From a virus, in the UHGV virus genome UHGV-1550212: 64,000 nt of DNA. One strand, written 5' to 3'. Made by a program: the position numbers and the translations under genes. The notes under the pieces were generated by a model. It saw only the letters and a list, made by a program, of their open reading frames with translations, made no database searches and had not been told where the DNA came from. Shown piece after piece: positions 6,510-35,439 of this stretch. Position 1 is the stretch's first letter; every line of letters begins with the position of its first letter.

Positions 6510-7802
6510 CTACAACAATGACGGCACTCGTTGAGTTTCAAGTGGGTCGCTGACATTGATGCCTGTGTATGCAACAAGTCGTTGTATTGGGCCAAGTACG
6601 AGTTTTTCGAACATGAGTCGTTTGTTCATTGGCGGCACATCTGGCATATACTTCGGTGTCGGCATTTCGCCTGGTGCAAAGCCAAATGCATCGCAATATT
6701 GACGAGAGCCAATTGGTATATTTGACAAATCTGACTTTGCTCTGTCAACAAAGTAGTAGAACACTCGACCGCCTTCAATCAATGGGTATCGTGTTTCCAA
6801 TCCATGTGCTTTGACAAGACAGTTATGCCAACAACATGCTCTATATTGAGGCAGTACACCTTTTGCTAACTGCCATTCACCATCATAGCTTAGCACATAG
6901 TCATGATACTTGTTTGCATTGACATATGCACAAAGTTTCTCCAAGTCTTGCTCGGCTTCAAAGCGTTTCCATAATTTCTGTATGAGCTTTGGATATGTCG
7001 CAGAAGTTAATTCGCCTCTGAACATTTTCTTGAATGCATAATCAAGCATTTGTCTAACAAGCATTGACGAGCCTGTTTGAATAAGTTCGATGCCTTTGCC
7101 TTGAATGTGCTCAGTAGGGTCTTCGAATACTCGACCATCTACATATATTTGAGCCTTTAAGTACTTTTTCTTTTGGGCAAATAATGCAGTGTCAGAAATC
7201 GTTTCGAGGTCAAATAGCAAAATTGAATTGCCGTGGCGTTTTGCGAGGTCTGCTGCATATGCACCATTGAATAACTCTTCCATACGATATTTGAATATCG
7301 CAAGAATCAAGTCATACCAATTTTTGCCTATGTAGCCAATTGATTTGACAGTTGGCTCAAAGTGAATGTACAAAGAGTCTGTATCAATGTACAACACTTT
7401 GTCTTCATAAGGCTCTTGCTTTGGCGACACAGACAAATCAAAATTGCCCTTCAATTGTGGGTCATTACGCAGCTTTTCATGCAATTCATAATCACACCAC
7501 CACTTATTGTTGAGATAGTCATTTGCTACTCGTTCACCAAAGTGAATGAAGTTGCGGCCTTCAGCAGTAATTGATTCTGCAACTGCCATATTAAAGAAGT
7601 GATAGAAACGATTGCTTGTAGCGCCATATATTGAGTTTCGACAACATTTTGCTGAGACTTGCAGTCCTGCATGCTTTAGTGATTCTTGCATTGCAAAATC
7701 TCTCAATTCAAATAGACGTTCAGTAGACAACTGGCTTAAATCACCAGTCAAATCTACTCCATCTATTTCAATTTTTGACATATCTATCTGAGCTTCTGCC
7801 AT
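6510..7802 (-). CDS. family B DNA polymerase, C-terminal part (motifs B and C)
   Basis: Contains K-x3-NSxYG (KCCRNSIYGATSN), YIDTDS and KKKY motifs; has its own promoter (7824-7853) and terminator (6453-6494). Confidence 0.85.
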   Translation of the reverse strand: MAEAQIDMSKIEIDGVDLTGDLSQLSTERLFELRDFAMQESLKHAGLQVSAKCCRNSIYGATSNRFYHFFNMAVAESITAEGRNFIHFGERVANDYLNNKWWCDYELHEKLRNDPQLKGNFDLSVSPKQEPYEDKVLYIDTDSLYIHFEPTVKSIGYIGKNWYDLILAIFKYRMEELFNGAYAADLAKRHGNSILLFDLETISDTALFAQKKKYLKAQIYVDGRVFEDPTEHIQGKGIELIQTGSSMLVRQMLDYAFKKMFRGELTSATYPKLIQKLWKRFEAEQDLEKLCAYVNANKYHDYVLSYDGEWQLAKGVLPQYRACCWHNCLVKAHGLETRYPLIEGGRVFYYFVDRAKSDLSNIPIGSRQYCDAFGFAPGEMPTPKYMPDVPPMNKRLMFEKLVLGPIQRLVAYTGINVSDPLETQRVPSLL

Positions 7803-10095: not shown

Positions 10096-11601
10096 TTACA
10101 ATTTGATTGCGCCTCTACGAGCAAGCTCTTCTTCAATCAATCGAACATGATTGTTAGCATACCAAAATTGCAATTTTTTGTGATAATTGCGAACGTTGCC
10201 AAGCTGTTCTTGAGTTTCTTTATACATTGAAGGCTCTCTGTTGTCATACAGACAATTGTTGACTGACACAAAGTAATTTGGGTCTGCTTTGTAATGCTCA
10301 ATTTCATCAGGATTTGTTAAACGTCTAATAAAGTTGTCTGGTGAAATATTCGCCGAGCGCATACTTGACGGATACAATGAGTTTGCGTCAACACAGACAA
10401 CCATACGAGCCCAATGGTTAAATGGTTGCTTAACAAAGCCGCCCTCAAATGAATGTACTACATTCTCTGGGCCACCTTGAGCACATACAACTTTGCCGCC
10501 ATATTTGTTGTATAAGTATGTCATCATGACGCCCTCAGATTGCTTAACTGGTCCTTGGCAGTGATTCATGTCAATATTTGTCATATTTGACAATGACATC
10601 ACATTTGATATCAAGTCAGTTTTTGCAGCAATCATTGCATTGACCATAGTATCGACAGCATTGTATGCAATGAATGTGCATGGATGATACAAATACAGCT
10701 CTTTAAGTGTGCAATCATAGGGCAACTTACCTACGCCGAACATACGATGTGCAATGTAGTCAAGTCGCAATGATTCCTTTTGCCACACTGAATAGTCGTA
10801 TGTGTCCATGAGCTGCATGTAGTCATCAATGTACTTGTGATATGGCATACCATTGCCCCAGACAGTTCTGCCAACTGGAGATGCCAATGCTAAATCAATA
10901 TTGTGCATTGCGCATCGATTTTTGACATAGATGTTATCGAAGTCATTGATGTTCCAGCCTGTCAATGCAGGAATGTTTTTGAAGAGCTTAGTCACCCAAA
11001 AATGCAACAATTCATGCTCATTTGCATGTTGAAAAATTTTGACAGTTGGATGTTCTTTCAAATACGCAGCAAAGCAATGTTGACCCATATACTCTTGAAT
11101 GATGCCATTGACAAACTCAAATGCATCATCCAATGTTGGGTTTTGTTTGCCGCAGCTTTTGCGCAAATCATCATCATTCAACAAGTCAACAGTAGTCTGA
11201 ATGACACAATTGCATTGTTCATCGCATGTACTTATTGCATTAATGGGCATTTCAGCTTTGTCAGGCTTTGGAAAGCCATTGCCAATTTCAGTCTCAATAT
11301 CGTAAAAGTACAACTTTGGTCTACGATAAGCAAACAATTCAGCTTTGTCAGCTTCAGGCAATTCAAATAAGAATTGCAGCAAGTCAAATTGATTGAATCG
11401 TTTTGCTGTGACTCGAGTCACTGGCAATTTACGCCAATCTTGAATATCTGCATATTGAGGCTCTACGTGGTCTGATATTTGCCACACTGGAAATTGATAT
11501 GGCTGTTCACAGACTGGGTATGTTTTGATGTCAATGCCACCTTGCTCATTAACATATGAGACTTCAATGCCATGTGACAAATATGCTACGTCAACAATCA
11601 T
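10096..11601 (-). CDS. family B DNA polymerase, N-terminal part (3'-5' exonuclease domain and motif A)
   Basis: Exo I FYDIETE, Exo II NINDFD, Exo III YNAVDT, polymerase motif A DANSLYPS; stops ~100 aa after motif A; own promoter at 11630-11658. Confidence 0.85.
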   Translation of the reverse strand: MIVDVAYLSHGIEVSYVNEQGGIDIKTYPVCEQPYQFPVWQISDHVEPQYADIQDWRKLPVTRVTAKRFNQFDLLQFLFELPEADKAELFAYRRPKLYFYDIETEIGNGFPKPDKAEMPINAISTCDEQCNCVIQTTVDLLNDDDLRKSCGKQNPTLDDAFEFVNGIIQEYMGQHCFAAYLKEHPTVKIFQHANEHELLHFWVTKLFKNIPALTGWNINDFDNIYVKNRCAMHNIDLALASPVGRTVWGNGMPYHKYIDDYMQLMDTYDYSVWQKESLRLDYIAHRMFGVGKLPYDCTLKELYLYHPCTFIAYNAVDTMVNAMIAAKTDLISNVMSLSNMTNIDMNHCQGPVKQSEGVMMTYLYNKYGGKVVCAQGGPENVVHSFEGGFVKQPFNHWARMVVCVDANSLYPSSMRSANISPDNFIRRLTNPDEIEHYKADPNYFVSVNNCLYDNREPSMYKETQEQLGNVRNYHKKLQFWYANNHVRLIEEELARRGAIKL

Positions 11602-19423: not shown

Positions 19424-20317
19424 CTATGTCAATGCAATAAAGACATCACCAGATTGCTCAGCCTCAAGCTCTTTTTCAACTGTCTGTTGCATTGTTTGAC
19501 CTTTTGACGCAAGTCTATCAAAGTTAATGCGAACATTGCCGGGCAACTTGAAGTCATATGTGCCAATGATATCTGCAAGTTCTTGCATGCATTGACCAGT
19601 GCAGTATCTCAAGAAACGTCTGTCTTCATACAATGACTGCAGTGGCACTCTTACCCAACACATCAACACCAAATCAGACCCTTCATTGTCACCAAGAATG
19701 TTCAGCTTATGACTAAATCTGTTGAAGTTATACGTGATTGTTCGTTGCAAAATGCTTTCATACGTGCCAATTTCATACATTGTCACCCACAAGTCATCTG
19801 CAATTGATGCATTTTGAGAACCTGCAGGCCCAGCGTAGTTAAATGACACACCGTTTGCTTCACTGTAAAAGTTAATTGAGTTGCTAAGCAGTCGTTCAAG
19901 ATAAAAGTTTGCACGACGCATTGACAGCTTATGCTGTGATTCAAGCAACTGCACATCTGATACAGCCCAGATTTGTGGCGGCAATTTGACAATTTTGTTT
20001 GCACCATCAGTCATGTCAATATCGCGAACAACAAACCAGCGCTCTTCAAGAGCAGACTCAGAATGTTCAAAAAACCATTCTGCGCATGTTTCAATGATTT
20101 GCGGCATACGAGTCTTCGGAATTGCAAAGGGCAATGCACAGCCTCGTGTGACTTCTTGAACAAGTCGCTCAATGAATCGCAAGTCTACACTGTAGTCGTA
20201 TTTAGAATTGATATTTTCGACTTCAGGCTTATTGCACTCATTTGTTGTTGCGCCTTCGACTTTCCAAGAAGTTGCGCCGTCATTGATTGGTGGCGCTGGT
20301 TTACGTTGAACTTTCAT
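19424..20317 (-). CDS. hypothetical protein
   Basis: 297-aa ORF followed by a terminator at 19366-19400. Confidence 0.5.
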   Translation of the reverse strand: MKVQRKPAPPINDGATSWKVEGATTNECNKPEVENINSKYDYSVDLRFIERLVQEVTRGCALPFAIPKTRMPQIIETCAEWFFEHSESALEERWFVVRDIDMTDGANKIVKLPPQIWAVSDVQLLESQHKLSMRRANFYLERLLSNSINFYSEANGVSFNYAGPAGSQNASIADDLWVTMYEIGTYESILQRTITYNFNRFSHKLNILGDNEGSDLVLMCWVRVPLQSLYEDRRFLRYCTGQCMQELADIIGTYDFKLPGNVRINFDRLASKGQTMQQTVEKELEAEQSGDVFIALT

Positions 20318-20375
20318 GCTTGATAACGTTGAACTTTCATGTGTCTTGTCTATGGTCTACGGTGTGTGAAACACT

Positions 20376-20933
20376 CTACGGTATGATGTTGAAATTGACT
20401 GCAAGCAACAATGATGTGACATCTTCGCCCAATGGAAATGAACCTGTAGTAAAACCAACTGTTTTTGTTTGTGTATATTGGCTGCTCAAATCGAAGTAGT
20501 ATTGTGATGGCGACAATTCTGGTGTAGCATGCGGCTCAGTTTGACCATTTCGAACAACCATCAATCGTACTGGACCATTGAATGTTGCTTTATGATTCGG
20601 CAATGCAGAACCGTTGTAGTTAAGCGACATGTATTGCATCGTAATTCGAATCTGCTCAGCATATGATTTGCTAAGGTCAAGTTGCTGAGTGCCTTGAACA
20701 CGTAGAATACTTGATTGTCCAGATGACTGCCAATTTGCATACACAGATTGCTCGTTGGTCGTTATGATGGCATTGCCATCAATATCGAGTAGTTCAACAG
20801 TCATCTGACCTGTCAAGCTGATTCGATTGCCAAGATTGTTGCCTACTACTGCAATGCTAACTGAAACGGGCTTCAAAGACCCCCCCTGCGCCACATTTTG
20901 TGAACGATAGTGGTCTTGTGTAACTGTTGACAT
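20376..20933 (-). CDS. hypothetical protein with 5' poly-G tract (paralog 1)
   Basis: Track start is a TTG; first ATG at 20933 gives MSTVTQDHYRSQNVAQGGS; a G7 run (coding strand) at 20880-20886 encodes the Gly-Gly. Confidence 0.5.
   Translation of the reverse strand: MSTVTQDHYRSQNVAQGGSLKPVSVSIAVVGNNLGNRISLTGQMTVELLDIDGNAIITTNEQSVYANWQSSGQSSILRVQGTQQLDLSKSYAEQIRITMQYMSLNYNGSALPNHKATFNGPVRLMVVRNGQTEPHATPELSPSQYYFDLSSQYTQTKTVGFTTGSFPLGEDVTSLLLAVNFNIIP
20880..20886 (-). repeat. homopolymeric G7 tract (coding strand) in 5' coding region
   Basis: C7 on plus strand; codons for Gly-Gly at residues 16-17 of 20376..20933. Confidence 0.8.
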
Positions 20934-20980
20934 ATCATAAAGTGTTTTGCGATGATGCAATCCACTTTATGAATGCATCA

Positions 20981-21352
20981 TCAGTTAAATAATGTTTGAA
21001 TTTTTATTGTAACGTCATTGCAGCCTTTTAGCAAGTCGACTTGAATCATATCGACAAATGCTGAACGATAACTTAAACCATTGCTGTACTGAACGTAAAA
21101 GTACTTGATATGCTCCCAATCATTTACGCAAGCTTTCGTAAAGTTATCTGACAACTGAATGCTTGTTGCTGATAGAGTCGTACATGCAACGTACGAATCA
21201 ACAAATATATGCAAGTCATTTACATTGATGTAACCAACGACATCAAGTTGATTTGTAAACGTGCTCAGCGGCAATGTCAGTATGATGTGGCCTAACTTAA
21301 CAGAGCCCCCCGCGTTTTGTGAACGATAGTGGTCTTGAGTAACGTGTGACAT
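20981..21352 (-). CDS. hypothetical protein with 5' poly-G tract (paralog 2)
   Basis: ATG at 21352 gives MSHVTQDHYRSQNAGGS; G6 run at 21306-21311; 5' nucleotides near-identical to 20376..20933. Confidence 0.5.
   Translation of the reverse strand: MSHVTQDHYRSQNAGGSVKLGHIILTLPLSTFTNQLDVVGYINVNDLHIFVDSYVACTTLSATSIQLSDNFTKACVNDWEHIKYFYVQYSNGLSYRSAFVDMIQVDLLKGCNDVTIKIQTLFN
21306..21311 (-). repeat. homopolymeric G6 tract (coding strand) in 5' coding region
   Basis: C6 on plus strand; residues 15-16 of 20981..21352. Confidence 0.8.
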
Positions 21353-21383
21353 ACTGTAATGAAATTGTTTGTTTGAATATGTA

Positions 21384-21995
21384 TTATGGTGTAATAATCG
21401 GTCCACCGCCAGGCAAACTTGAACATGTTTGCATATATGTGTACAACAAGTTACCTGCATTTTGCATAATGTTTGCAAACATCAATGTGATGCCTCGCAA
21501 ATCTGCTTCGCCTTCAAATGTGTTGATGAACGCTTGCTGTGCACATGCAAACATTACTGGCACAGTCGATGCACTTGTCATTGCAATCACAGGACCGCCA
21601 GGCGACAAGGGCAACACTGGTGGCGATGCAGGCACAGTTAAGTTTGTTGGAATCCATGCTGCAACTGCTGCAGCATAAGGCTTAAAGCCATTGCCAAACT
21701 TTATTGCAATGTTCTTTGGGTCTGCTTCACCTTGAAACGTTTCTATAAGTGCTTGTCTGCCTGCTTCAAATAAAGATTGCTCAAGTGCAGCAGTTGGACC
21801 TGCAGTTATTGGACCGCCAACAGGCAATCCTGTGCAAGTTGCAATGTAGCTTGCTACGCCTGTTGCAAACAATTGACTGAACTTGTTGGCAAACTTTGTC
21901 GCAATTTGTGGTCTATCATGCTCACCTTGAAAAGTTGCAGTATATGCTTGATATGCAATAGGCTGCACAGCAGCTTGCAATGTGGCACCTGGCAT
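21384..21995 (-). CDS. protein with three tandem ~70-aa repeats
   Basis: Repeats TFQGEHDRPQIATKFANKF / TFQGEADPKNIAIKFGNGF / TFEGEADLRGITLMFANIM, each followed by a PxGGP segment; start set to the ATG abutting the upstream stop. Confidence 0.5.
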   Translation of the reverse strand: MPGATLQAAVQPIAYQAYTATFQGEHDRPQIATKFANKFSQLFATGVASYIATCTGLPVGGPITAGPTAALEQSLFEAGRQALIETFQGEADPKNIAIKFGNGFKPYAAAVAAWIPTNLTVPASPPVLPLSPGGPVIAMTSASTVPVMFACAQQAFINTFEGEADLRGITLMFANIMQNAGNLLYTYMQTCSSLPGGGPIITP

Positions 21996-21996
21996 A

Positions 21997-22281
21997 TCAA
22001 TCCAACAATTGAGCAGCAGCAATTGCGCCAAGTGCTGCAGATATAAATGATTGCACAATGTATGATAAACTCCAGCAACGTTCTATTGCATAGAGTTTTG
22101 ACAAGCCACATGCAATGATATCAAGTGCGACTGCACACAATGTAACTGCAAGCAAATGTGTTCGCAATGGCACTTCAATTGTGTCGTATGTCATTAGTGT
22201 TGTTGCAAATGCAATGAATGCGATTATTACGCAGTGCAGCAGTGCAAACATCAAGCGTTCAATGAAATGTTGACTGTTCAT
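21997..22281 (-). CDS. small membrane protein
   Basis: 94 aa, three hydrophobic helices. Confidence 0.4.
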   Translation of the reverse strand: MNSQHFIERLMFALLHCVIIAFIAFATTLMTYDTIEVPLRTHLLAVTLCAVALDIIACGLSKLYAIERCWSLSYIVQSFISAALGAIAAAQLLD

Positions 22282-22283
22282 AT

Positions 22284-23162
22284 TTAGTCTTGGCCTTTAT
22301 CAATTGTTGCGATTTTTGATAGTGTCTCAGGCAAAAAGTCTGAGTCTTTTTTGTGTGTGTTGTTTGATGGTTGCTGCACTTTTGCAGGATATGTGCCAAA
22401 TACAGGTGCAAGTGGGCTTGTGTATGGGTTGCTTTGCGCAGTTGTTTGCAATTGCTTCATGACTTTTGCAAGATTGTCAACAACTTCTTTCACGTAATCA
22501 AGAACATTTTGATGCGCAGTTTTGTTGTCATCTCCAACTACACAAGGCTGTTCTGATTTATCTGTGCTGCCAAAGCTTAAGTGACCATCAGCAGTCATAT
22601 GAATGACACCATTTTTGTCAGCGTCAGTAGTCATATGAATTGATTTATCCTTACGCAAATTGATGTCTGTGCCATTGTAGTAAATGTGCCAGCCTTGTTC
22701 AGGTGTCCACCATATGCCAAACTTACCCTCTGCACCATATCGTTCAGCGTCATCGTAGACAACAATCTTTGCTTTGGCGTTTTCATCACCAATGACATCT
22801 TTTACTATATCTGAGCGAGAATCAAGATGCATCCAAGTCATATTATAGACGCCTCGACTCAAATCAAGCATAACCCAGTCACCCACAATTGGCGCATCAT
22901 ACATGTTCATCATGCTGCTATCTGCATAGCACCATGGCAGCTTGTCTGCAGCAATTTCATTGTCAGCAAATCGAGTAAAGCCGTCAATTTGACAGCGGAT
23001 GCGACATTGCAACATGTCATCATCAACATCAACAACTTCACCAATAAGCTTAACTGGCATGCCCTCTGTCAAAGACCCAATTGATGATGCAGTTATTGAT
23101 GCATTGTATGCTGATATCTTTTCAAACAGCTCTTCTTGAGTAACAAGCAACATATCAGACAT
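22284..23162 (-). CDS. hypothetical protein
   Basis: 292-aa ORF with repeated IHMT.D segments; 1-nt overlap with upstream gene. Confidence 0.5.
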   Translation of the reverse strand: MSDMLLVTQEELFEKISAYNASITASSIGSLTEGMPVKLIGEVVDVDDDMLQCRIRCQIDGFTRFADNEIAADKLPWCYADSSMMNMYDAPIVGDWVMLDLSRGVYNMTWMHLDSRSDIVKDVIGDENAKAKIVVYDDAERYGAEGKFGIWWTPEQGWHIYYNGTDINLRKDKSIHMTTDADKNGVIHMTADGHLSFGSTDKSEQPCVVGDDNKTAHQNVLDYVKEVVDNLAKVMKQLQTTAQSNPYTSPLAPVFGTYPAKVQQPSNNTHKKDSDFLPETLSKIATIDKGQD

Positions 23163-24592
23163 TACATTGAATCTTCATACACATTGATACGACCAAGCTT
23201 TGGCGACTTTTCTTGGTCAGGCTCATACACAGGATTTGCAAGTGCTTTCTGTGATAAGCTGTCATCATATTTTGCTACTGCAGACCCTTTGAGCAATTGC
23301 TTTGCTCTTGAATATGCAAACTGTGGATTTGTCAATGCTGCAATTTCAACAGCATTCAAGCCATAGACATTGCCAACAGTCTTGCCAACAAGTATTCGAC
23401 TTGCTTGCATATTAATTTCAGCCAACGCATTTGCTGCAGTTGACAATGCAAACTCTTTTGCATACTCAAGCGCTTCTTTAGCGGCTTTGTTGACTGCGTC
23501 TTTGAGTAGCTGTTTGACTGACTGGCCTTTCATTGTCGACACAACTTGCTGTGTAATCTTGCCATACTTGCTATCTTTTGCAAGCTTGACAAATTGCTGG
23601 CCATATGTCTCTTTCTTTTTCTCAACTGTTTCTGATGTGTCAGTGTCACTAAGAATTTTTTGAGACTGCACTACAAGACCCTTATGACTGTCTTTCATTG
23701 CTGCAAATGCAGACGAAATTGACAATGTGCCATATGACACTTTGATGTTGTTTGTCGCCATTGTAGGCTCAGCAGTGTTATCTATGTCTTGCACAAAGTT
23801 TGCACCAGAATCGGGCATAAATGCGCATTGACCAAAATTGAAGAGCACATACTGACCAGCGTTAATTACGACTGCGATGTCATCTGGTCTTGCCATTTGA
23901 GTTGATGATGACACGCCTTCTATACGTGCTTGCTGAATTGCTTTGATGTCTTCACCGTAGTTTGCAACTTCTGTTCTCGTATCACCAAAACTGTGCTCTG
24001 ACATACCAAGCATTTGCTCAACTTCATTGTCAAGTTTTAATGACTTGTCATCTGCAAGCTCTTCTTGGAATATGCGAACTTCTGTTACATACACAAACAT
24101 GTTGAAGCGTTGCAAGTTCAGTGGTAGCACATAGACCATGCGGTCGTAGTCATATAACACTTGCTTGAGCAGCGTGTTAATTGTCGCAAATCGCCAGTCA
24201 ACGCTTTCTGTCACAGTAAGCCCAATGGTTTTGTCATTCAAAATGACTTCTTTCATTGTTCGCTTATACGCATCAGCAAGCCCTTGAATGCCTGTAAAGC
24301 AATGAAACGCAGAGTCCTGAATTGCTTGCAGCATCTTTATGACAATTTCAAGCTGTGCATATCGCGTGTCATCACCAATTCGCTTCAAATATGCCAATGC
24401 GCTGTTCTTAAACTTAGCATCTGCAAGTAAACCCATTTCAGAGTCAAAGTTAAAGAACACTCTAAATGTCAAATACGTTGGGTCTTGATATGCATTGCAC
24501 AACACACCATTTATGACCTCTGGGTCAAGTGACATGAATTGGTATACACCATTGAACATGTCTATGCGTGAAGTTGCGTGATTTGATGGCAT
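23162..24592 (-). CDS. hypothetical protein
   Basis: 476-aa ORF with Lys-rich coiled-coil-like C-terminal region. Confidence 0.5.
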   Translation of the reverse strand: MPSNHATSRIDMFNGVYQFMSLDPEVINGVLCNAYQDPTYLTFRVFFNFDSEMGLLADAKFKNSALAYLKRIGDDTRYAQLEIVIKMLQAIQDSAFHCFTGIQGLADAYKRTMKEVILNDKTIGLTVTESVDWRFATINTLLKQVLYDYDRMVYVLPLNLQRFNMFVYVTEVRIFQEELADDKSLKLDNEVEQMLGMSEHSFGDTRTEVANYGEDIKAIQQARIEGVSSSTQMARPDDIAVVINAGQYVLFNFGQCAFMPDSGANFVQDIDNTAEPTMATNNIKVSYGTLSISSAFAAMKDSHKGLVVQSQKILSDTDTSETVEKKKETYGQQFVKLAKDSKYGKITQQVVSTMKGQSVKQLLKDAVNKAAKEALEYAKEFALSTAANALAEINMQASRILVGKTVGNVYGLNAVEIAALTNPQFAYSRAKQLLKGSAVAKYDDSLSQKALANPVYEPDQEKSPKLGRINVYEDSM

Positions 24593-24699: not shown

Positions 24700-26361
24700 C
24701 TAACGACCGTAGCTGTATGCATTCGCCTTATCAGCATTTGCTTTGCGTGCATTGTTTCGTTGAGTTTGACTACGAATTGCTTTCTTATTGCCAGACGCTT
24801 CAAGTGCAGTATTGTACTGCTTAACTGCTGCATTGAGCTCATTCACAAATTGCTGTGTATTGCATTGTTCAAGCAGCAGCATGTTAGATGTCAATTGAGC
24901 AGACTCAGTATTGTCATTGAGCTGCTCCAAATCACGACAATTGTAATATGTGGTGACGTCATCATCTGTAATGCTGACACAAGTTGATGCAAATGCCACT
25001 GTAGGCTTAGCAATGTTGCATTCATATTCATAGTATTTGACGTCTTGATAGTCATATCCACCACTCAAGCGCTTAACTTTGACATTATTGCGAACTTTTT
25101 CTACTTTCTGAATGTTTGCTATCTGTGCAAGCTGTGCATACTTAGACGCATCAATGGTTGCAACTCCAAGCGATTCAGATGCTTTAATGTCTTCAAGCAA
25201 TTCATAAATTGCTGCAGCAATGTTTGACTTGATGCCTACATAATTTGCTGTTAGCTGCTGAGGCGTACGAGCTTGTTCAACAATCTTTACATTTTGACGA
25301 AGCTTAGCAAAGTTGTCAGTGCTTGTTAGCAATGCATTGTAGAGCAAAGTGTCATTTGCAGGCTCACCACCGTATTTGGCGCATAATGCATCATTAGGCT
25401 TGCCAAAAATGTCTTCAATGCGCTTTGCATAGATACCAGTTGGAATTCGTGCAACACTTCTGTTTGTCACATAGATTTCATTACCAGCTTCATCACAAAT
25501 TGCTAAATACTGGTTGTCTTCTGTGTACACTCTGTAAGTTTTGCCTTTGATGTTTTTGAGCTTGTATTTGCGATTGCTATTGTCAAACCACACACTATCG
25601 CTTTTGATGACATTGCCATCGGTGTCATAGTTTGCAAACCACTGAAAAGTTTTAGAATTGAAACTCTTAGACTGCACTGCATCGTTAGGTTCCCAAGTTG
25701 CATTTGGCAGCTGACGAGCATGCGTAGTCAATTCATATCGTCCATCGTCAGCATTCCATGTTTTTGTAATGATATGCGCCTTTGTTTTGTCTGTCCATAC
25801 AGTGCAAGTGCCATCAGATGTTCGCTCAGAATACATTTCACCAATAGGACTGATTTCCCAAAAGATGTCACCAGTTTTGCCAGCAGTCTGTACAAACTTG
25901 CGATTGTCTTCACCAGTGATTCTATCGATGCGACCAACAAGTTCATATTTGCTTACAGTGTATTCATAGCCATTGTCGTCATATGCAATAGTGTGTTTGA
26001 GTCTGCACTGATATTTGCCATTGTCGGTATACAACTCCTGATAAACTTCACGGCCTTTGCTGTCATATGACCACTTGCCTAACAGTTGACCAAGTGAATT
26101 GTATTCAAGCCAAGTGCCTGACTGCTTGCCATCATTGTCCCAAGTTCGAATCATAGCAAGTTGAGCGTTATCGAACCACTGTTCGTCTTTAATGACAACG
26201 CCTGCAGCATTCGTAGTAGTTCTACTACGCAAGCATTTGTCTACAAGACTTCCGTCTTTAAGTGTTTGCCAATGCGTCGTCGTGACTTTTTGTGCGTCTG
26301 CGTTTACATGCATAAGCACACTTGCCGCTAATACAAGCAGCAACATTTTTAGTGTTTTCAT
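24700..26361 (-). CDS. secreted repeat protein (MORN/YD-like repeats) with N-terminal signal peptide
   Basis: Signal-peptide-like MKTLKMLLLVLAASVLMHVNADAQ; repeated W/Y-x-x-Y-D/N-x-x-G-K units; terminator at 24649-24681. Confidence 0.6.
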   Translation of the reverse strand: MKTLKMLLLVLAASVLMHVNADAQKVTTTHWQTLKDGSLVDKCLRSRTTTNAAGVVIKDEQWFDNAQLAMIRTWDNDGKQSGTWLEYNSLGQLLGKWSYDSKGREVYQELYTDNGKYQCRLKHTIAYDDNGYEYTVSKYELVGRIDRITGEDNRKFVQTAGKTGDIFWEISPIGEMYSERTSDGTCTVWTDKTKAHIITKTWNADDGRYELTTHARQLPNATWEPNDAVQSKSFNSKTFQWFANYDTDGNVIKSDSVWFDNSNRKYKLKNIKGKTYRVYTEDNQYLAICDEAGNEIYVTNRSVARIPTGIYAKRIEDIFGKPNDALCAKYGGEPANDTLLYNALLTSTDNFAKLRQNVKIVEQARTPQQLTANYVGIKSNIAAAIYELLEDIKASESLGVATIDASKYAQLAQIANIQKVEKVRNNVKVKRLSGGYDYQDVKYYEYECNIAKPTVAFASTCVSITDDDVTTYYNCRDLEQLNDNTESAQLTSNMLLLEQCNTQQFVNELNAAVKQYNTALEASGNKKAIRSQTQRNNARKANADKANAYSYGR

Positions 26362-29155: not shown

Positions 29156-30214
29156 TTACTGCTTCAAGCCTGTGAACAGTTCATACTTGAATGCAGGCCC
29201 TGCTGTGTAAGCCTCAAAGTAGAAGTCACCAATATTGATGCTTGCAATAGCGTCATCGACAGCTTTCTTGTAGCCTACACGTTCAATTGTCTGCTTATCG
29301 CATTTACGCCAATATGTGCTGTGCATCATAAGCGTGGGTGATGCAGCATAGTCTACTGCAAGCTGTTGTTTTGCAGTGTCAATGTGATGTTCATAGATGT
29401 GCACATCATTGCCAGTCCAAATGAACTCTCTTGCCACACAGTTAGTCAATGTTGCAACAATATGTGTAAGCAATGCATATGATGCGATATTGATGGGCAC
29501 ACCAAGACACATGTCACAGCTACGCTGAGTAAGCGCACAGTCAAGCCACATGCTTGGTACTTGAGCAGAATCAAGGCATTCTGCAGAACCATCATGCACA
29601 AGCATGCTATCATTAGCAATCTGAATTCGTTCTTCAAGAGTCATTGGCTGACAATTGAACTGAAACAGCATATGACATGGCGGCAATGCCATCTGAGACA
29701 TTTGCGCAGGATTCCATGCAGACACGACTTTGTAGCGGCCAGTTGGATTGATGACAATGTCTTTAATGCAAGTTGCAAGTTGGTCAAATCCACTGTCATT
29801 GAAGTTGCGCCACTGATACCCATAGATAGGTCCGCAATCACCATACTCAGGTTTGCTGAATTTTGTGTTGTGCAGTTCTGTGCACCAAGTGTCAAAGTCG
29901 ACATCTTCACCTGGATGCAGCTTTTGCCAATGACGATATGCATCCTGATGCCAGAACTTTGTAATGCCAAGCGTGTCAAGCGTTTTGACATTAGTGTCAC
30001 CTGACATAAACCACAGAAGTTCTCCAATGACGCCTTTGACAAACATTCTCTTGGATGTCAACAGTGGAAAGCCTTTACGCAAATCAAATCGCATTGATTC
30101 TACAAACAATGACTTTGTGCGAGGCATGTTTTCACGAGCAGGTTCCTTAAATCTGCCATGCTCAATAACATTATTAAGTACTCTCAAGTACTCAGTGTCG
30201 TGTTTGATATTCAT
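29156..30214 (-). CDS. thyA: thymidylate synthase (ThyA family, dUMP-specific type)
   Basis: ThyA blocks GELLWFMSGDTN, GPIYGYQWR, SAWNPAQMSQMALPPCH, QRSCDMCLGVPINIASYALL (Asn retained), WTGNDVHIY; ~60-aa C-terminal extension. Confidence 0.85.
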   Translation of the reverse strand: MNIKHDTEYLRVLNNVIEHGRFKEPARENMPRTKSLFVESMRFDLRKGFPLLTSKRMFVKGVIGELLWFMSGDTNVKTLDTLGITKFWHQDAYRHWQKLHPGEDVDFDTWCTELHNTKFSKPEYGDCGPIYGYQWRNFNDSGFDQLATCIKDIVINPTGRYKVVSAWNPAQMSQMALPPCHMLFQFNCQPMTLEERIQIANDSMLVHDGSAECLDSAQVPSMWLDCALTQRSCDMCLGVPINIASYALLTHIVATLTNCVAREFIWTGNDVHIYEHHIDTAKQQLAVDYAASPTLMMHSTYWRKCDKQTIERVGYKKAVDDAIASINIGDFYFEAYTAGPAFKYELFTGLKQ

Positions 30215-33437: not shown

Positions 33438-34319
33438 TTATCGTTTGAATTTGATGAAGTGTTCAGCATCAAGGCCCTCAAATATGTACGGGTCAAGAGT
33501 TTCCCAGAAGTTTGAGTATGTCGTTGTCTTTGCAATACTTGTCTGCTTTGACAAGTTCATGTTTGGATAGCCAAGCATTGCATAGTGTCGCTCATATATG
33601 TGCATTGACGTTGCATTATGCATATAAGCGCCAAGCTTAAGACCAAGTTCATTTGCGACAAGTTCTTGCAACAAAGTGAATGCAAACTGGTCGTTACAGA
33701 AGCCCCAAATGACATCATTGCTTCGCATATATGTTGTCAAGTACAGCTTATCACCACGAACATTGAAAACAAGATTCAATGTGCACGGCATATCTTTGCC
33801 AGTGTAGTTTGCATATTGCGGCTCATAAATGCTAATAACTGCTCGTCTTGTGCATTCATGATTTCGCAAACGTTCAATGACATCTGCAATCTGCTTGTGC
33901 CAAATTGCGCCATACTGTGAATTGACATTGACGCCATCATCACTGAACTGCTTCCAACGAGGCAAATAACGTTCAATGCATTCAACTGCAGGATTGGCTG
34001 TCATATACCATGCAAATTCTGCAGCAGCATTGAGCTTTTTCCATGGTCGTACATCAATCTTGATTTGTCGCTGTGAAGGGTCCTGAATAACTACAGACAC
34101 ATTCAGCAATTCTTTTGTTCGAGTCACTGTTTGTGCATTGTTGCCCTTTGATTCTACAAACTCACCTCTACAATGAAGTTCATACAAAATTGAGCGAAAT
34201 GCTTCTGTTGCAGTGTTTTCAACGATTGTCGTCTGTTGATAGCATAAATTTGACGACAATGCTTCAGCATCATTGTACTTTATGCTGTCATTGTCATAAG
34301 GTGAATTTTTTGTGTGCAT
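33438..34319 (-). CDS. ThyA-family pyrimidine hydroxymethylase/methylase, cytosine-specific type (dCMP hydroxymethylase-like)
   Basis: ThyA-like blocks EFAWYMTANP, YGAIWHKQ, TRRAVISIYEP, DMPCT (catalytic Cys), YMRSNDVIWGFCNDQFAF where the ThyA Asn aligns with Asp; start trimmed to 34319 to avoid a 116-nt overlap. Confidence 0.55.
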   Translation of the reverse strand: MHTKNSPYDNDSIKYNDAEALSSNLCYQQTTIVENTATEAFRSILYELHCRGEFVESKGNNAQTVTRTKELLNVSVVIQDPSQRQIKIDVRPWKKLNAAAEFAWYMTANPAVECIERYLPRWKQFSDDGVNVNSQYGAIWHKQIADVIERLRNHECTRRAVISIYEPQYANYTGKDMPCTLNLVFNVRGDKLYLTTYMRSNDVIWGFCNDQFAFTLLQELVANELGLKLGAYMHNATSMHIYERHYAMLGYPNMNLSKQTSIAKTTTYSNFWETLDPYIFEGLDAEHFIKFKR

Positions 34320-34344
34320 ATTTTGGGATGTTTGTTTTTTATTA

Positions 34345-35439
34345 TCATACAACGATAGTATCTCGTTTGCAATCTGTTTTGTCAAATATTGAACAACAAT
34401 ACGATGCAGATTGTTCTTTGATTTCAAGAGCTTCATCATTATCAAGTGATGAAATGCCATCTATGTATGCTTTTGCATTGCCAGCAATGTCATCATTTGT
34501 TAACAACGCTGCACGACGTTCAGTGCCAAAGAAGCCAAAGCACAATTGATGTTGCAGTGCTTCACGAGAAGTCTTGTCATCAAACTCTGATTTCATGTGT
34601 TGCATAAATTCGACAATATCATCAATGTCGCATTGAGTAAAGTCAATGCACAATTTATGCATGTACTTGAATCGTTTGTAGTCTGTTGCAAGAATTTCTG
34701 GGTGCACAATGAACAACGTCTTTTTGCTGTCTATTGGATTTGCAATGACTGATGCTTGAACATAATCGACAAGCATACCAGATTCACGAAGTTGCTCAAT
34801 TGTTTTGCCAAACACATGCCCAAGCGTGTCATCAAACCACTTCAAGTATGCTTCACTGTCTTCATCTTTTGACGCGCCAACAATGTAAATCTCATTGACT
34901 CCAAGTGCTTTGAGACGAGTATCAGACAACATAGTATTCAATTGATGCTGCACGTACAGCATTGGGCTGCTATGCAAAACCGTTTTAACAATCTCACAAG
35001 CAATGTCCATATATGCATAGTCAAGCTTTGCAGATTTTGACACATACACTGCACGTTGCTGCAATGGCTCAATTGCCGAGCATGTAGTTACAAAGTTGCC
35101 AACACATTCTGCTACTGCAATGTCATGCAAGTCATCTGCAATGTACACAATACTTGACAAGTCATCAAATGTTTGAACAAGTTGCTGAAGCTTTGTTTTG
35201 TAATTGCAGAGCATCAATGACTTGATGTTGCAATTACTTAGCATTGTCTTGATGAGTCGTTGACCTGCTTCAGTGCTGTCACCAGAAATGACATGCACAT
35301 CGCAGTCAAACCAGTTCAGCATGTCAATTGCATGCCGAACACCATATTGCATTTGTTTTGCAAACTTACCAGATTCATTGAACAGCATTTCACCTGACAT
35401 AATGCCGTCAAAGTCACATACGATTTGAAGTCTGTCCAT
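34345..35439 (-). CDS. HAD-superfamily (KdsC-like) sugar-phosphate phosphatase domain protein with unknown C-terminal domain
   Basis: IVCDFDGIMSGEMLFNESGKF (DxDG motif I), VHVISGDS, YIADDLHDIAV (motif IV), resembling KdsC/YrbI-type phosphatases. Confidence 0.5.
   Translation of the reverse strand: MDRLQIVCDFDGIMSGEMLFNESGKFAKQMQYGVRHAIDMLNWFDCDVHVISGDSTEAGQRLIKTMLSNCNIKSLMLCNYKTKLQQLVQTFDDLSSIVYIADDLHDIAVAECVGNFVTTCSAIEPLQQRAVYVSKSAKLDYAYMDIACEIVKTVLHSSPMLYVQHQLNTMLSDTRLKALGVNEIYIVGASKDEDSEAYLKWFDDTLGHVFGKTIEQLRESGMLVDYVQASVIANPIDSKKTLFIVHPEILATDYKRFKYMHKLCIDFTQCDIDDIVEFMQHMKSEFDDKTSREALQHQLCFGFFGTERRAALLTNDDIAGNAKAYIDGISSLDNDEALEIKEQSASYCCSIFDKTDCKRDTIVV

What the first reader, a model, noticed from the sequence alone, without database searches (positions are those of the whole stretch)
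21384..21995. Protein built from three tandem ~70-aa repeats, adjacent to the poly-G paralog pair
Each repeat has TF(Q/E)GE(A/H)D...I(A/T).KF(A/G)N and a following PxGGP segment. The gene sits in a block (19424-24592) of unknown, structural-looking genes embedded among replication genes.
Basis: seen in the sequence. Interest (0 to 1): 0.35.

Follow-up and report, generated by a model that had tools for sequence, protein, structure and literature searches.

The report
Three-repeat protein beside phage tail spike
A 203-residue protein of an uncultured giant phage is built from three copies of a small helical unit that related phages encode as a separate ~95-residue protein beside the tail-spike gene, so it is probably one chain imitating a three-subunit complex that works with the trimeric spike.

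Summary
The minus-strand gene 21384-21995 encodes 203 aa made of three units of 65, 73 and 65 aa. Pairwise scores lie 14-16 SD above shuffles, and a unit HMM hits three times. AlphaFold (pLDDT 91.6) gives each unit as helix, 10-residue loop, helix, then a short beta-hairpin around LPxGGP. Pfam, PHROGs, NCBIfam, PDB and BFVD give no match.

The family is small: about 22 clusters, all from uncultured relatives of the Bacteroidota jumbo phages PAU, PTm1 and MA9V-1. Every full-length member has exactly three units.

A second family of 94-114 aa proteins has exactly one unit (hhalign 96%, E 2.5e-9). It includes PTm1 gp233, PAU gp262 and MA9V1_120. In PTm1 this gene lies 3 nt after the gp5-like central-spike gene. 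The triple-repeat gene holds that position here and in four other lineages.

The inter-helix loops of the three units co-evolve, and one homologue shows gene conversion between them.

Best reading (inferred, about 0.45): a triplicated, fused version of a homotrimeric partner of the trimeric spike or hub. It would act as a cap, plug or trimerisation template. It is not PAAR. Function is unproven, and 4 of 9 loci lack spike adjacency. I rate it a new family and a new variant of a known kind, of moderate interest.

The parts
21384..21995 (-). Gene for the 203-aa three-unit protein (ATG 21995, stop 21384-21386)
   Evidence: ORF and translation. Homologues of 198-209 aa align end to end. AlphaFold pLDDT 91.6, pTM 0.86. 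No Pfam, PHROG, NCBIfam or PDB match.
21801..21995 (-). Unit 1 (aa 1-65): helix 4-20, loop FQGEHDRPQ, helix 31-53, then a beta-hairpin around C54-x-GLPVGGP
   Evidence: F35 and G60-G61 are invariant in 24 sequences.
21582..21800 (-). Unit 2 (aa 66-138): helix 69-86, loop, helix 96-117, then a Pro-rich insert PASPPVLPLSPGGP. This unit is the closest to the single-unit proteins.
   Evidence: F100 is invariant and G133-G134 nearly so. hhalign places the single-unit family on residues 65-137.
21387..21581 (-). Unit 3 (aa 139-203): helix 142-159, loop, helix 169-188, then C191-SSLPGGGPI
   Evidence: F173 and G197-G198 are invariant.
21997..22281 (-). 94-aa ORF with 2-3 hydrophobic, membrane-like segments. 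It lies between the spike gene and the target, with a 2-nt gap upstream and a 1-nt gap downstream.
   Evidence: No family match. Whether it is expressed was not tested.
22284..23162 (-). gp5-like baseplate central spike protein (292 aa) with an N-terminal OB domain
   Evidence: PHROG 37871 'baseplate protein', E 1.7e-29. Pfam Phage_base_V matches 5 of 5 family members, best E 7.8e-5. The profile hits PDB Gp5 9vzk_q at E 0.0026 and T4-type gp5 entries. It is homologous to PTm1 ORF-234, annotated 'baseplate hub subunit and tail lysozyme'.
23162..24592 (-). Conserved 476-aa protein that always precedes the spike gene (homologues: PAU gp255, PTm1 ORF-235). Its stop overlaps the spike gene's start (TAATG). 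Candidate hub component, unproven.
   Evidence: phmmer E 1e-17 to 1e-31 against PAU, MA9V-1, PTm1, L001 and L009. No Pfam or PDB match. Junction sequence.
19424..20317 (-). T4 gp13-like neck / head-tail adaptor protein (297 aa)
   Evidence: PHROG 211 'head-tail adaptor Ad2', E 4e-9. Homologues in L001, L009, L011, L012, L014 and L015 carry Pfam Phage_T4_gp13. Homologue of PAU gp263.
20981..21352 (-). Next gene downstream (123 aa from ATG 21352) and first of the paralogue pair. It is listed as context only.

Best explanation
The gene encodes a single-chain pseudo-trimer.

A small ancestral protein of about 95 aa consisted of helix, loop, helix and then a Pro/Gly-rich strand ending in GGPV. Phages such as PTm1, PAU and MA9V-1 still encode it as a separate gene. 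That gene was triplicated in tandem and fused. One 203-aa chain now supplies the three helical hairpins, a six-helix bundle with three GGP beta-hairpins at one end and three acidic loops at the other. In the short form, three separate subunits would have to supply these.

The protein most likely acts on the three-fold axis of the baseplate centre, together with the trimeric gp5-like spike encoded just upstream. It may also act with the conserved 476-aa protein that precedes the spike gene. Possible roles are a cap or tip, a plug inside the hub-spike complex, or a template that holds three spike chains in register.

Shown: the repeats, their fixed number, the confident predicted secondary structure, homology to single-unit proteins, gene adjacency to the spike in several lineages, and loop co-evolution with gene conversion.

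For: 1. Three units are statistically solid (z 14-16).
2. Copy number is quantised. All 22 full-length long-family members have exactly 3 units. The short-family proteins (18 found) have one: the unit HMM detects exactly 1 unit in the 15 it matches, and none has more. No protein has 2 or 4 units. This fits a closed C3 assembly better than an open solenoid.
3. AlphaFold with 24 sequences gives pLDDT 91.6 and pTM 0.86, with all five models at 89.8 or higher and the same helix-loop-helix-hairpin pattern three times.
4. The short and long families are homologous. hhalign of A6 against the unit profile A4 gives 96.2%, E 2.5e-9. A5 against A4 gives 94.3%, E 9.7e-8. Both share the motif PAAP..L.(A/S)P..GGPV.
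5. Position. In PTm1 an isolated island reads 476-aa homologue, then spike homologue, then the 94-aa single-unit gene after a 3-nt gap. The triple-unit gene follows the spike gene in the window, L001, L009, L011 and L013. In the window the four genes are packed with gaps of -1, 2 and 1 nt.
6. The neighbour is a gp5/VgrG-type OB-fold spike. By established knowledge these spikes are homotrimers.
7. The helix-loop-helix junction co-evolves among the three units of one protein. Within-protein cross-unit identity is 46%, against 36% for cross-unit comparisons between proteins and 37% for the same unit between proteins (permutation z 9.9). In the P0013 gene a 68-nt stretch is 94% and 85% identical among the units, synonymous sites included, while the other direct-repeat families elsewhere in the gene are only 63-79% identical between units. 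This shows gene conversion keeping the three loops alike, as expected if they face three equivalent partner subunits.
Against: - No direct evidence of binding, of virion incorporation, or of the oligomeric state of the short form.
- Spike adjacency is not universal. The upstream gene is the major capsid protein in L004, a PAU gp269-like protein after the portal gene in L012, and an unknown protein in L015 and L018.
- The P0039 clade of short proteins has no recognisable spike neighbour.
- PAU gp262 and MA9V1_120 lie 3 and 8 genes from the spike gene. Taken singly they match the unit profile only weakly: hhalign 43% and 21%.
- Two members (P0021, P0023) carry an insert of roughly 75-90 aa in the loop of unit 1 only, which breaks the equivalence of the loops.
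- Gene conversion between similar repeats can be neutral.
- The permutation z-score ignores relatedness among the proteins.
- A gp13-like neck gene lies 0-9 genes downstream in all long loci, so a neck or head role is also compatible with the synteny.
Confidence: 0.45

Rival explanations
1. It is a non-virion assembly chaperone. The three-fold helical bundle would transiently template trimerisation or folding of the spike, or of another trimeric tail protein, and then be released. T4 gp57A, a small all-alpha oligomer, does this for the trimeric fibre proteins gp12, gp34 and gp37 (established knowledge).
For: The symmetry arguments are the same as for the main explanation. The protein is small, helical and charge-poor. 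The gene is translationally coupled to the spike gene. Several loci also encode Peptidase_S74 fibre proteins nearby.
Against: No sequence or fold similarity to any known chaperone. A fixed covalent pseudo-trimer is not needed for a catalytic chaperone. The C-terminal coiled-coil tails of P0014 and P0015 look more like structural or cargo extensions.
Confidence: 0.22
2. It is a structural protein at some other three-fold or quasi-three-fold site. Examples are a capsid cement or decoration protein, or a neck or collar component linked to the gp13-like adaptor. Its position next to the spike gene would then be incidental.
For: In L004 the gene directly follows the major capsid protein gene. In L012 it follows the portal gene and a gp269-like gene. 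In L011 and PAU it directly precedes the gp13-like gene, and a gp13-like gene lies within 0-9 genes downstream in every long locus.
Against: Five independent lineages plus PTm1 and PTm5 place it immediately after the spike gene. The PTm1 three-gene island contains no head or neck gene at all. Structural genes are scattered in these jumbo genomes, so any morphogenesis neighbour is likely by chance.
Confidence: 0.18
3. It is a helical repeat protein with no role in a symmetric assembly, for example an ejected internal protein or a host-directed factor. The three units would simply build one globular bundle.
For: No functional evidence exists. The fold has no known relatives. The loop insert in P0021 and P0023 and the tails in P0014, P0015 and P0019 show that asymmetry is tolerated.
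Against: This does not explain the 1-or-3 copy-number rule, the single-unit relatives at the same genomic position, or the homogenisation of the loops.
Confidence: 0.12

Closest known systems
PAAR-repeat spike-tip proteins (T4 gp5.4; T6SS PAAR, Pfam PF05488)
   Same: A small protein encoded right after a gp5/VgrG-type spike gene. One chain carries three internal repeats, so its pseudo-three-fold symmetry matches a trimeric partner. Some members carry C-terminal extensions (here P0014 and P0015).
   Different: PAAR is an all-beta cone with PAAR motifs and a Zn site. This protein is predicted to be three helical hairpins plus GGP beta-hairpins. No PAAR Pfam hit appears in any of 24 members even at E <= 1. 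PAAR has no single-repeat homotrimeric counterpart, whereas this family has one.
T4 gp57A-type chaperones of trimeric tail proteins
   Same: Small, all-alpha, oligomeric, and acting on trimeric tail components. These properties of gp57A are established knowledge and were not tested here.
   Different: No similarity was detected in the Pfam and PHROG scans. The gene position differs. No fused pseudo-trimer form is known for gp57A.
Antiparallel six-helix bundles (CAP1 helical folded domain 6rsw/6rsq; designed sc-apCC-6 8qae)
   Same: These are the best Foldseek matches. They are about 170-210 residues long and built of six helices.
   Different: The matches are not significant: E 0.12-0.3, TM 0.27-0.38, about 10% identity. 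They lack the three-fold repeat and the GGP hairpins.
Symmetry-adapting internal duplications in tail hubs (T4 gp27 tandem tube-like domains; VgrG)
   Same: The same evolutionary device: duplication and fusion inside one chain changes the effective symmetry of a component on the tail axis (established knowledge).
   Different: These are beta-barrel domains that give a pseudo-six-fold ring from a trimer. Here a pseudo-three-fold monomer would derive from a presumed trimer. There is no sequence relation.

Membership tests
PAAR-repeat proteins (PF05488) | Sequence match to the PAAR motif model | tested here: not met
   Pfam scan of the target at E <= 0.01 and of all 24 family members at E <= 1: no PAAR hit.
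PAAR-repeat proteins (PF05488) | All-beta conical fold with three beta-strand repeats | tested here: not met
   The AlphaFold model (pLDDT 91.6) is mainly helical, with six long helices. No PAAR structure appears among the Foldseek PDB hits.
PAAR-repeat proteins (PF05488) | Binds the blunt end of the trimeric spike as a monomer | not testable with these tools
   Needs complex prediction or experiment. Only gene adjacency to the spike is shown.
WD40 repeat proteins | About 40-aa beta-propeller blades and a consistent model match | tested here: not met
   The full-length profile picked up WD40 proteins through the motif SPDGxxIASGS...TFxGHxD. The Pfam scans returned no WD40 family, the unit HMM does not hit those proteins, and the predicted structure is helical.
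gp5/VgrG OB-fold spike (PF04717 Phage_base_V), for the neighbour 22284-23162 | N-terminal OB domain with the LPW motif | tested here: met
   5 of 5 family members match PF04717, best E 7.8e-5. The window protein alone scores 16.6 bits, below the 23.8-bit curated cut-off. The profile hits PDB Gp5 and T4 gp5 N-termini. PHROG 37871, E 1.7e-29.
gp5/VgrG OB-fold spike, for the neighbour 22284-23162 | Homotrimeric assembly on the tail axis | not testable with these tools
   Assumed from established knowledge of gp5, VgrG and gpV. Not tested for this protein.
T4 gp13 neck protein (PF26809), for 19424-20317 | Sequence match to the family | tested here: inconclusive
   The window protein matched only PHROG 211 (E 4e-9) and no Pfam family at E <= 0.01. 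Its homologues (phmmer 1e-34 to 1e-46) carry precomputed PF26809 hits.
Single-unit family (PTm1 gp233 / PAU gp262 / P0039), newly delineated here | One helix-loop-helix unit followed by (A/S)PxxGGPVxG, homologous to each unit of the target | tested here: met
   hhalign 96.2%, E 2.5e-9 and 94.3%. The unit HMM gives one domain per protein in 15 short proteins. Taken singly, PAU gp262 and MA9V1_120 are weak.

The most novel reading that the evidence does not exclude
Bacteroidota-type jumbo phages of the PAU/PTm1 lineage use a non-PAAR, alpha-helical cap or tip on their gp5-like spike. It exists in two interchangeable architectures: a homotrimer of about 95-aa subunits, and a fused single-chain pseudo-trimer. 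Fusion frees the three units to diverge. Examples are the loop insert in unit 1 of P0021 and P0023 and the C-terminal coiled-coil tails of P0014 and P0015. This would parallel the way PAAR proteins carry extension or effector domains.
Probability: 0.2. Interest if true: 0.65.

Novelty: new variant of a known kind. Interest (0 to 1): 0.42.

Why it matters
If the reading is right, it gives a natural matched pair of one assembly: a homotrimer and its single-chain pseudo-trimer. The assembly would sit at the cell-puncturing centre of a contractile tail, in a phage lineage (PAU, PTm1, MA9V-1, distantly the Lak phages) whose baseplate is uncharacterised.

It would show a second, structurally unrelated way besides PAAR to put a pseudo-three-fold monomer on a trimeric spike. 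It also offers a clean case of oligomer-to-repeat evolution with ongoing gene conversion.

In practice it assigns a testable role to PTm1 gp233, PAU gp262 and MA9V1_120, all of which belong to cultured phages. If the reading is wrong, this is still a new, confidently predicted fold family, but one of limited reach: about 20 sequence clusters, all in uncultured phages.

Tried and rejected
1. Known families. Pfam, PHROGs and NCBIfam on the target gave nothing. The scans were extended to the whole family (Pfam) and to the short family (PHROGs), also with no result.

2. GenBank phages. tblastn of the target found nothing at E <= 0.01. Megablast of the 6-kb region found nothing.

3. PDB sequence profiles. 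Only spurious hits appeared: WD40 PkwA, and tau through its PGGG repeat ends.

4. Foldseek. No hit had E < 0.1.

5. WD40 relationship. This was suggested by 19 hits in the exhaustive search. I rejected it as a short-motif coincidence multiplied by WD40 repetition.

6. Membrane protein. This was suggested by the low charge and by weak Foldseek hits to rhodopsins. I rejected it because the maximum 19-residue hydropathy is 1.41 and several homologues are 16-22% charged.

7. Capsid association. In L004 the upstream gene is the major capsid protein. In L012, however, the upstream 626-aa protein is not a capsid protein but a PAU gp269 homologue. I kept this only as a rival explanation.

8. Identity of the 476-aa upstream protein as a gp27-like hub. 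No Pfam or PDB support was found.

9. Spike neighbours in the P0039 clade. None could be recognised.

10. Virion proteomics in the literature. The MA9V-1 paper (PMC10537231) reports SDS-PAGE only. The PTm1 and PAU primary papers are not in the library. A search for PDB code 9VZK returned nothing relevant.

11. Model coordinates are not exposed, so the bundle geometry and its pseudo-symmetry could not be measured.

Full report
**The observation**

The finding sits on the minus strand. The ORF runs from ATG 21995 to the stop at 21384-21386 and encodes 203 aa. A longer TTG-initiated reading frame (to 22058) would overlap the upstream ORF. It is also not supported by homologues, which all start at the equivalent Met.

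The protein splits into units of 65, 73 and 65 aa. Local alignment scores between units are 81-95, against 23 +/- 4 for shuffled sequences (z 14-16, 0 of 1000). An HMM of the unit hits three times, best single-domain E 1.7e-28 (whole protein 4.6e-75). At DNA level the register is 195 and 219 nt.

Across 24 family members the only invariant residues are the initiator Met, one Phe in each of the three units, and the Gly-Gly pairs of units 1 and 3. The Gly-Gly pair of unit 2 is conserved in at least 90% of members.

**The gene's surroundings**

All genes here are on the minus strand. In order of transcription they are:
- a 476-aa conserved protein (23162-24592);
- a 292-aa protein (22284-23162);
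- a 94-aa hydrophobic ORF (21997-22281);
- the target;
- two small paralogues;
- a gp13-like neck or adaptor protein (19424-20317; PHROG 211, and Pfam Phage_T4_gp13 in its homologues);
- a 1113-aa homologue of PAU gp264.

The first four genes are packed tightly, with a 1-nt overlap, a 2-nt gap and a 1-nt gap.

The 1113-aa protein places the window among relatives of Sphingomonas (Sphingobacterium) phage PAU, Chryseobacterium phages MA9V-1 and MA9V-2, and Tenacibaculum phages PTm1, PTm5 and pT24. The Lak phages are more distant relatives. The source is therefore an uncultured jumbo phage of the Bacteroidota-infecting lineage. No near-identical DNA exists in GenBank phages.

The 292-aa neighbour is the baseplate central spike. 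It matches PHROG 37871 'baseplate protein' at E 1.7e-29. All five aligned family members match Pfam Phage_base_V, the gp5/VgrG OB domain, with best E 7.8e-5. The family profile hits the N-termini of PDB Gp5 (9vzk_q, E 0.0026) and T4-type gp5. Its PTm1 homologue is annotated 'baseplate hub subunit and tail lysozyme'.

**What the protein looks like**

With a 6-sequence alignment AlphaFold gave pLDDT 82.5. With 24 sequences it gave pLDDT 91.6 and pTM 0.86, with all five models at 89.8 or higher.

Each unit is a 17-18-residue helix, a 9-10-residue loop (FQGExDxxx), a 20-23-residue helix, and two short strands bracketing LPxGGP. The protein is charge-poor (9% D/E/K/R, GRAVY 0.26). It is not membrane-like: the maximum 19-residue hydropathy is 1.41, and several homologues are 16-22% charged.

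Foldseek found no significant relative in the PDB or BFVD. The best hits have E about 0.12 and TM <= 0.38, and they are generic six-helix bundles. I could not inspect coordinates, so the six-helix bundle with three-fold pseudo-symmetry is an inference. It rests on the thrice-repeated secondary structure and on those weak hits.

**The family**

A word-indexed search of 5.8 billion proteins found 5 homologues. An exhaustive HMM search of 1.84 billion cluster representatives found about 20. The remaining hits of that search are WD40 proteins, picked up through a short motif coincidence. The unit HMM does not match them.

Members are 198-209 aa long, with these exceptions:
- P0014 and P0015 have C-terminal K/E/A-rich coiled-coil tails.
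- P0019 has an N-terminal extension.
- P0021 and P0023 have an insert of roughly 75-90 aa in the loop of unit 1.

All 22 full-length members have exactly three units. Units are orthologous by position. Same-unit identity between proteins is 36%, against 26% for cross-unit identity. This points to a single triplication before the family radiated.

**Single-unit relatives**

The exhaustive search also returned a 97-aa protein, P0039, that aligns to unit 2. The family HMM weakly picked out PAU gp262 (94 aa) and MA9V1_120 (97 aa) among the ORFs of the syntenic regions. tblastn with PAU gp262 then found PTm1 ORF-233, also 94 aa.

A profile search with these sequences gathered 18 proteins of 80-114 aa. 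The unit HMM matches 15 of them, each with exactly one unit. They share the motif PAAPQ..L.AP..GGPVTG, which mirrors unit 2's PAxPP..P.SPGGPVIA.

Profile-profile comparison supports homology. The mixed single-unit alignment gives 96.2% at E 2.5e-9 against the unit profile. The P0039 clade alone gives 94.3% at E 9.7e-8. Taken singly, PAU gp262, MA9V1_120 and PTm1 gp233 reach only 43%, 21% and 69%.

**Position of the single-unit and triple-unit genes**

In PTm1 three genes form an isolated island between genes on the opposite strand. ORF-235 is the 476-aa homologue (E 1.5e-31). ORF-234 is the spike homologue (E 4.7e-34). ORF-233, the single-unit gene, starts 3 nt after the spike gene. That is exactly the slot the triple-unit gene occupies in five loci:
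- the window, with the 94-aa ORF in between;
- L001;
- L009, with a 2-nt gap;
- L011, where the order is spike, target, gp13-like;
- L013, with a 42-aa ORF in between.

The adjacency is not universal:
- In L004 the major capsid protein gene is upstream.
- In L012 the order is portal gene, a PAU gp269-like gene, then the target.
- L015 and L018 have unidentified upstream genes.
- PAU gp262 and MA9V1_120 lie 3 and 8 genes from the spike gene.
- The P0039 clade has no recognisable spike nearby.

A gp13-like gene lies 0-9 genes downstream in every long locus.

**Co-evolution of the units**

In the 15 residues spanning the end of helix A, the loop and the start of helix B (TF...KF), units within one protein are 46% identical. 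Different units compared between proteins are 36% identical, and the same unit compared between proteins is 37% identical. The permutation z-score is 9.9, with 0 of 5000 permutations reaching the observed value. In the rest of the unit the excess is small.

P0013 has 21 identical residues in all three units. Its gene (L009) shows a 68-nt tract that is 94% and 85% identical among the units, synonymous sites included, while the other direct-repeat families elsewhere in the gene are only 63-79% identical between units. This is gene conversion confined to the loop region. The z-score ignores phylogenetic relatedness among the proteins, so it overstates significance. The direction of the effect is still clear.

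**Interpretation**

Four facts point to a closed three-fold assembly:
- The copy number is either one or three, never two or four.
- A single-unit gene sits in the same genomic slot.
- The fold is confidently predicted and repeats three times.
- The loops are kept alike among the three units.

The assembly would be made either from three small subunits or from one fused chain. The most frequent neighbour is the gp5-like spike. By established knowledge of gp5, VgrG and gpV, such spikes are homotrimers on the tail axis.

I therefore think the protein most likely works on that axis, with three equivalent faces towards three spike or hub chains. It could be a cap or tip, a plug, or a trimerisation template. 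It works like PAAR in logic: a pseudo-three-fold monomer encoded after the spike gene. It is not a PAAR protein, because both the sequence test and the fold test fail.

The rivals are:
- a released chaperone, gp57A-like in logic;
- a protein at another three-fold site in the head or neck, which the L004, L012 and gp13 synteny keeps alive;
- a non-symmetric role.

Confidence in the descriptive claims is about 0.9. These are a real gene, three units, a new family, and triplication of a single-unit ancestor. Confidence in the spike-axis function is about 0.45.

**Novelty and verdict**

The family is unannotated and has no Pfam or PHROG entry. In cultured phages its only relatives are 'hypothetical proteins'. 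The evolutionary device and the genomic logic are known, but the protein is not. I rate it a new variant of a known kind, of moderate interest (0.42). The main value is a concrete, cheap set of experiments on PTm1, PAU and MA9V-1.

Noticed in passing
window 21997-22281 (-): A 94-aa ORF with 2-3 strongly hydrophobic, transmembrane-like segments lies between the spike gene and the target, with 2-nt and 1-nt gaps. It has no family match. A 42-aa ORF occupies the same slot in L013, and PAU has a membrane-like gp258 just upstream of its spike gene.
   Followed up: partly
window 20376-20933 (-) and 20981-21352 (-): The paralogue pair shares the N-terminus MS(H/T)VTQDHYRSQN. Each gene has a G6 or G7 run about 45 nt into the ORF (C6 at 21306-21311 and C7 at 20880-20886 on the + strand). 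These could be slippage or phase-variation sites. The rest of the two proteins is barely similar.
   Followed up: partly
L009 10040-10521 (gene of P0013): A 68-nt tract is repeated three times at 85-94% DNA identity inside a gene whose units are otherwise much less alike. This indicates recent intragenic gene conversion restricted to the helix-loop-helix junction.
   Followed up: yes
proteins P0014 (378 aa), P0015 (283 aa), P0021 and P0023: Some family members carry a long K/E/A-rich coiled-coil C-terminal tail. Others carry an acidic insert of roughly 75-90 aa in the loop of unit 1 only. Fusion into one chain therefore seems to have allowed asymmetric elaboration.
   Followed up: partly
window 24700-26361 (-): A 553-aa protein with an N-terminal signal-peptide-like sequence (MKTLKMLLLVLAASVLMHVNADAQ) and recurring W-x-DN / Y-D-x-x-G motifs lies just upstream of the spike block. 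It has no family match, but a 548-aa protein occupies the same position in L001.
   Followed up: no
window 6510-7802 (-) and 10096-11601 (-); 29156-30214 (-) and 33438-34460 (-): The family-B DNA polymerase appears split into two separate genes about 2.3 kb apart. PTm1 is similarly annotated with a split, intein-containing polymerase. Two different thymidylate-synthase-like genes lie within 5 kb of each other.
   Followed up: no
(database behaviour): The full-length profile attracts WD40 proteins (motif SPDGxxIASGS...TFxGHxD) and tau (PGGG repeat ends) with seemingly significant summed E-values, as low as 2e-12. These are motif coincidences multiplied by repetition. They would mislead an automated annotation.
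   Followed up: yes
window 23162-24592 (-); PAU gp255; PTm1 ORF-235: A conserved protein of about 400-480 aa always sits immediately upstream of the spike gene across PAU, MA9V-1, PTm1 and metagenomic relatives. It has no detectable family. By position it is a candidate gp27-like hub, which is worth a structure prediction.
   Followed up: partly
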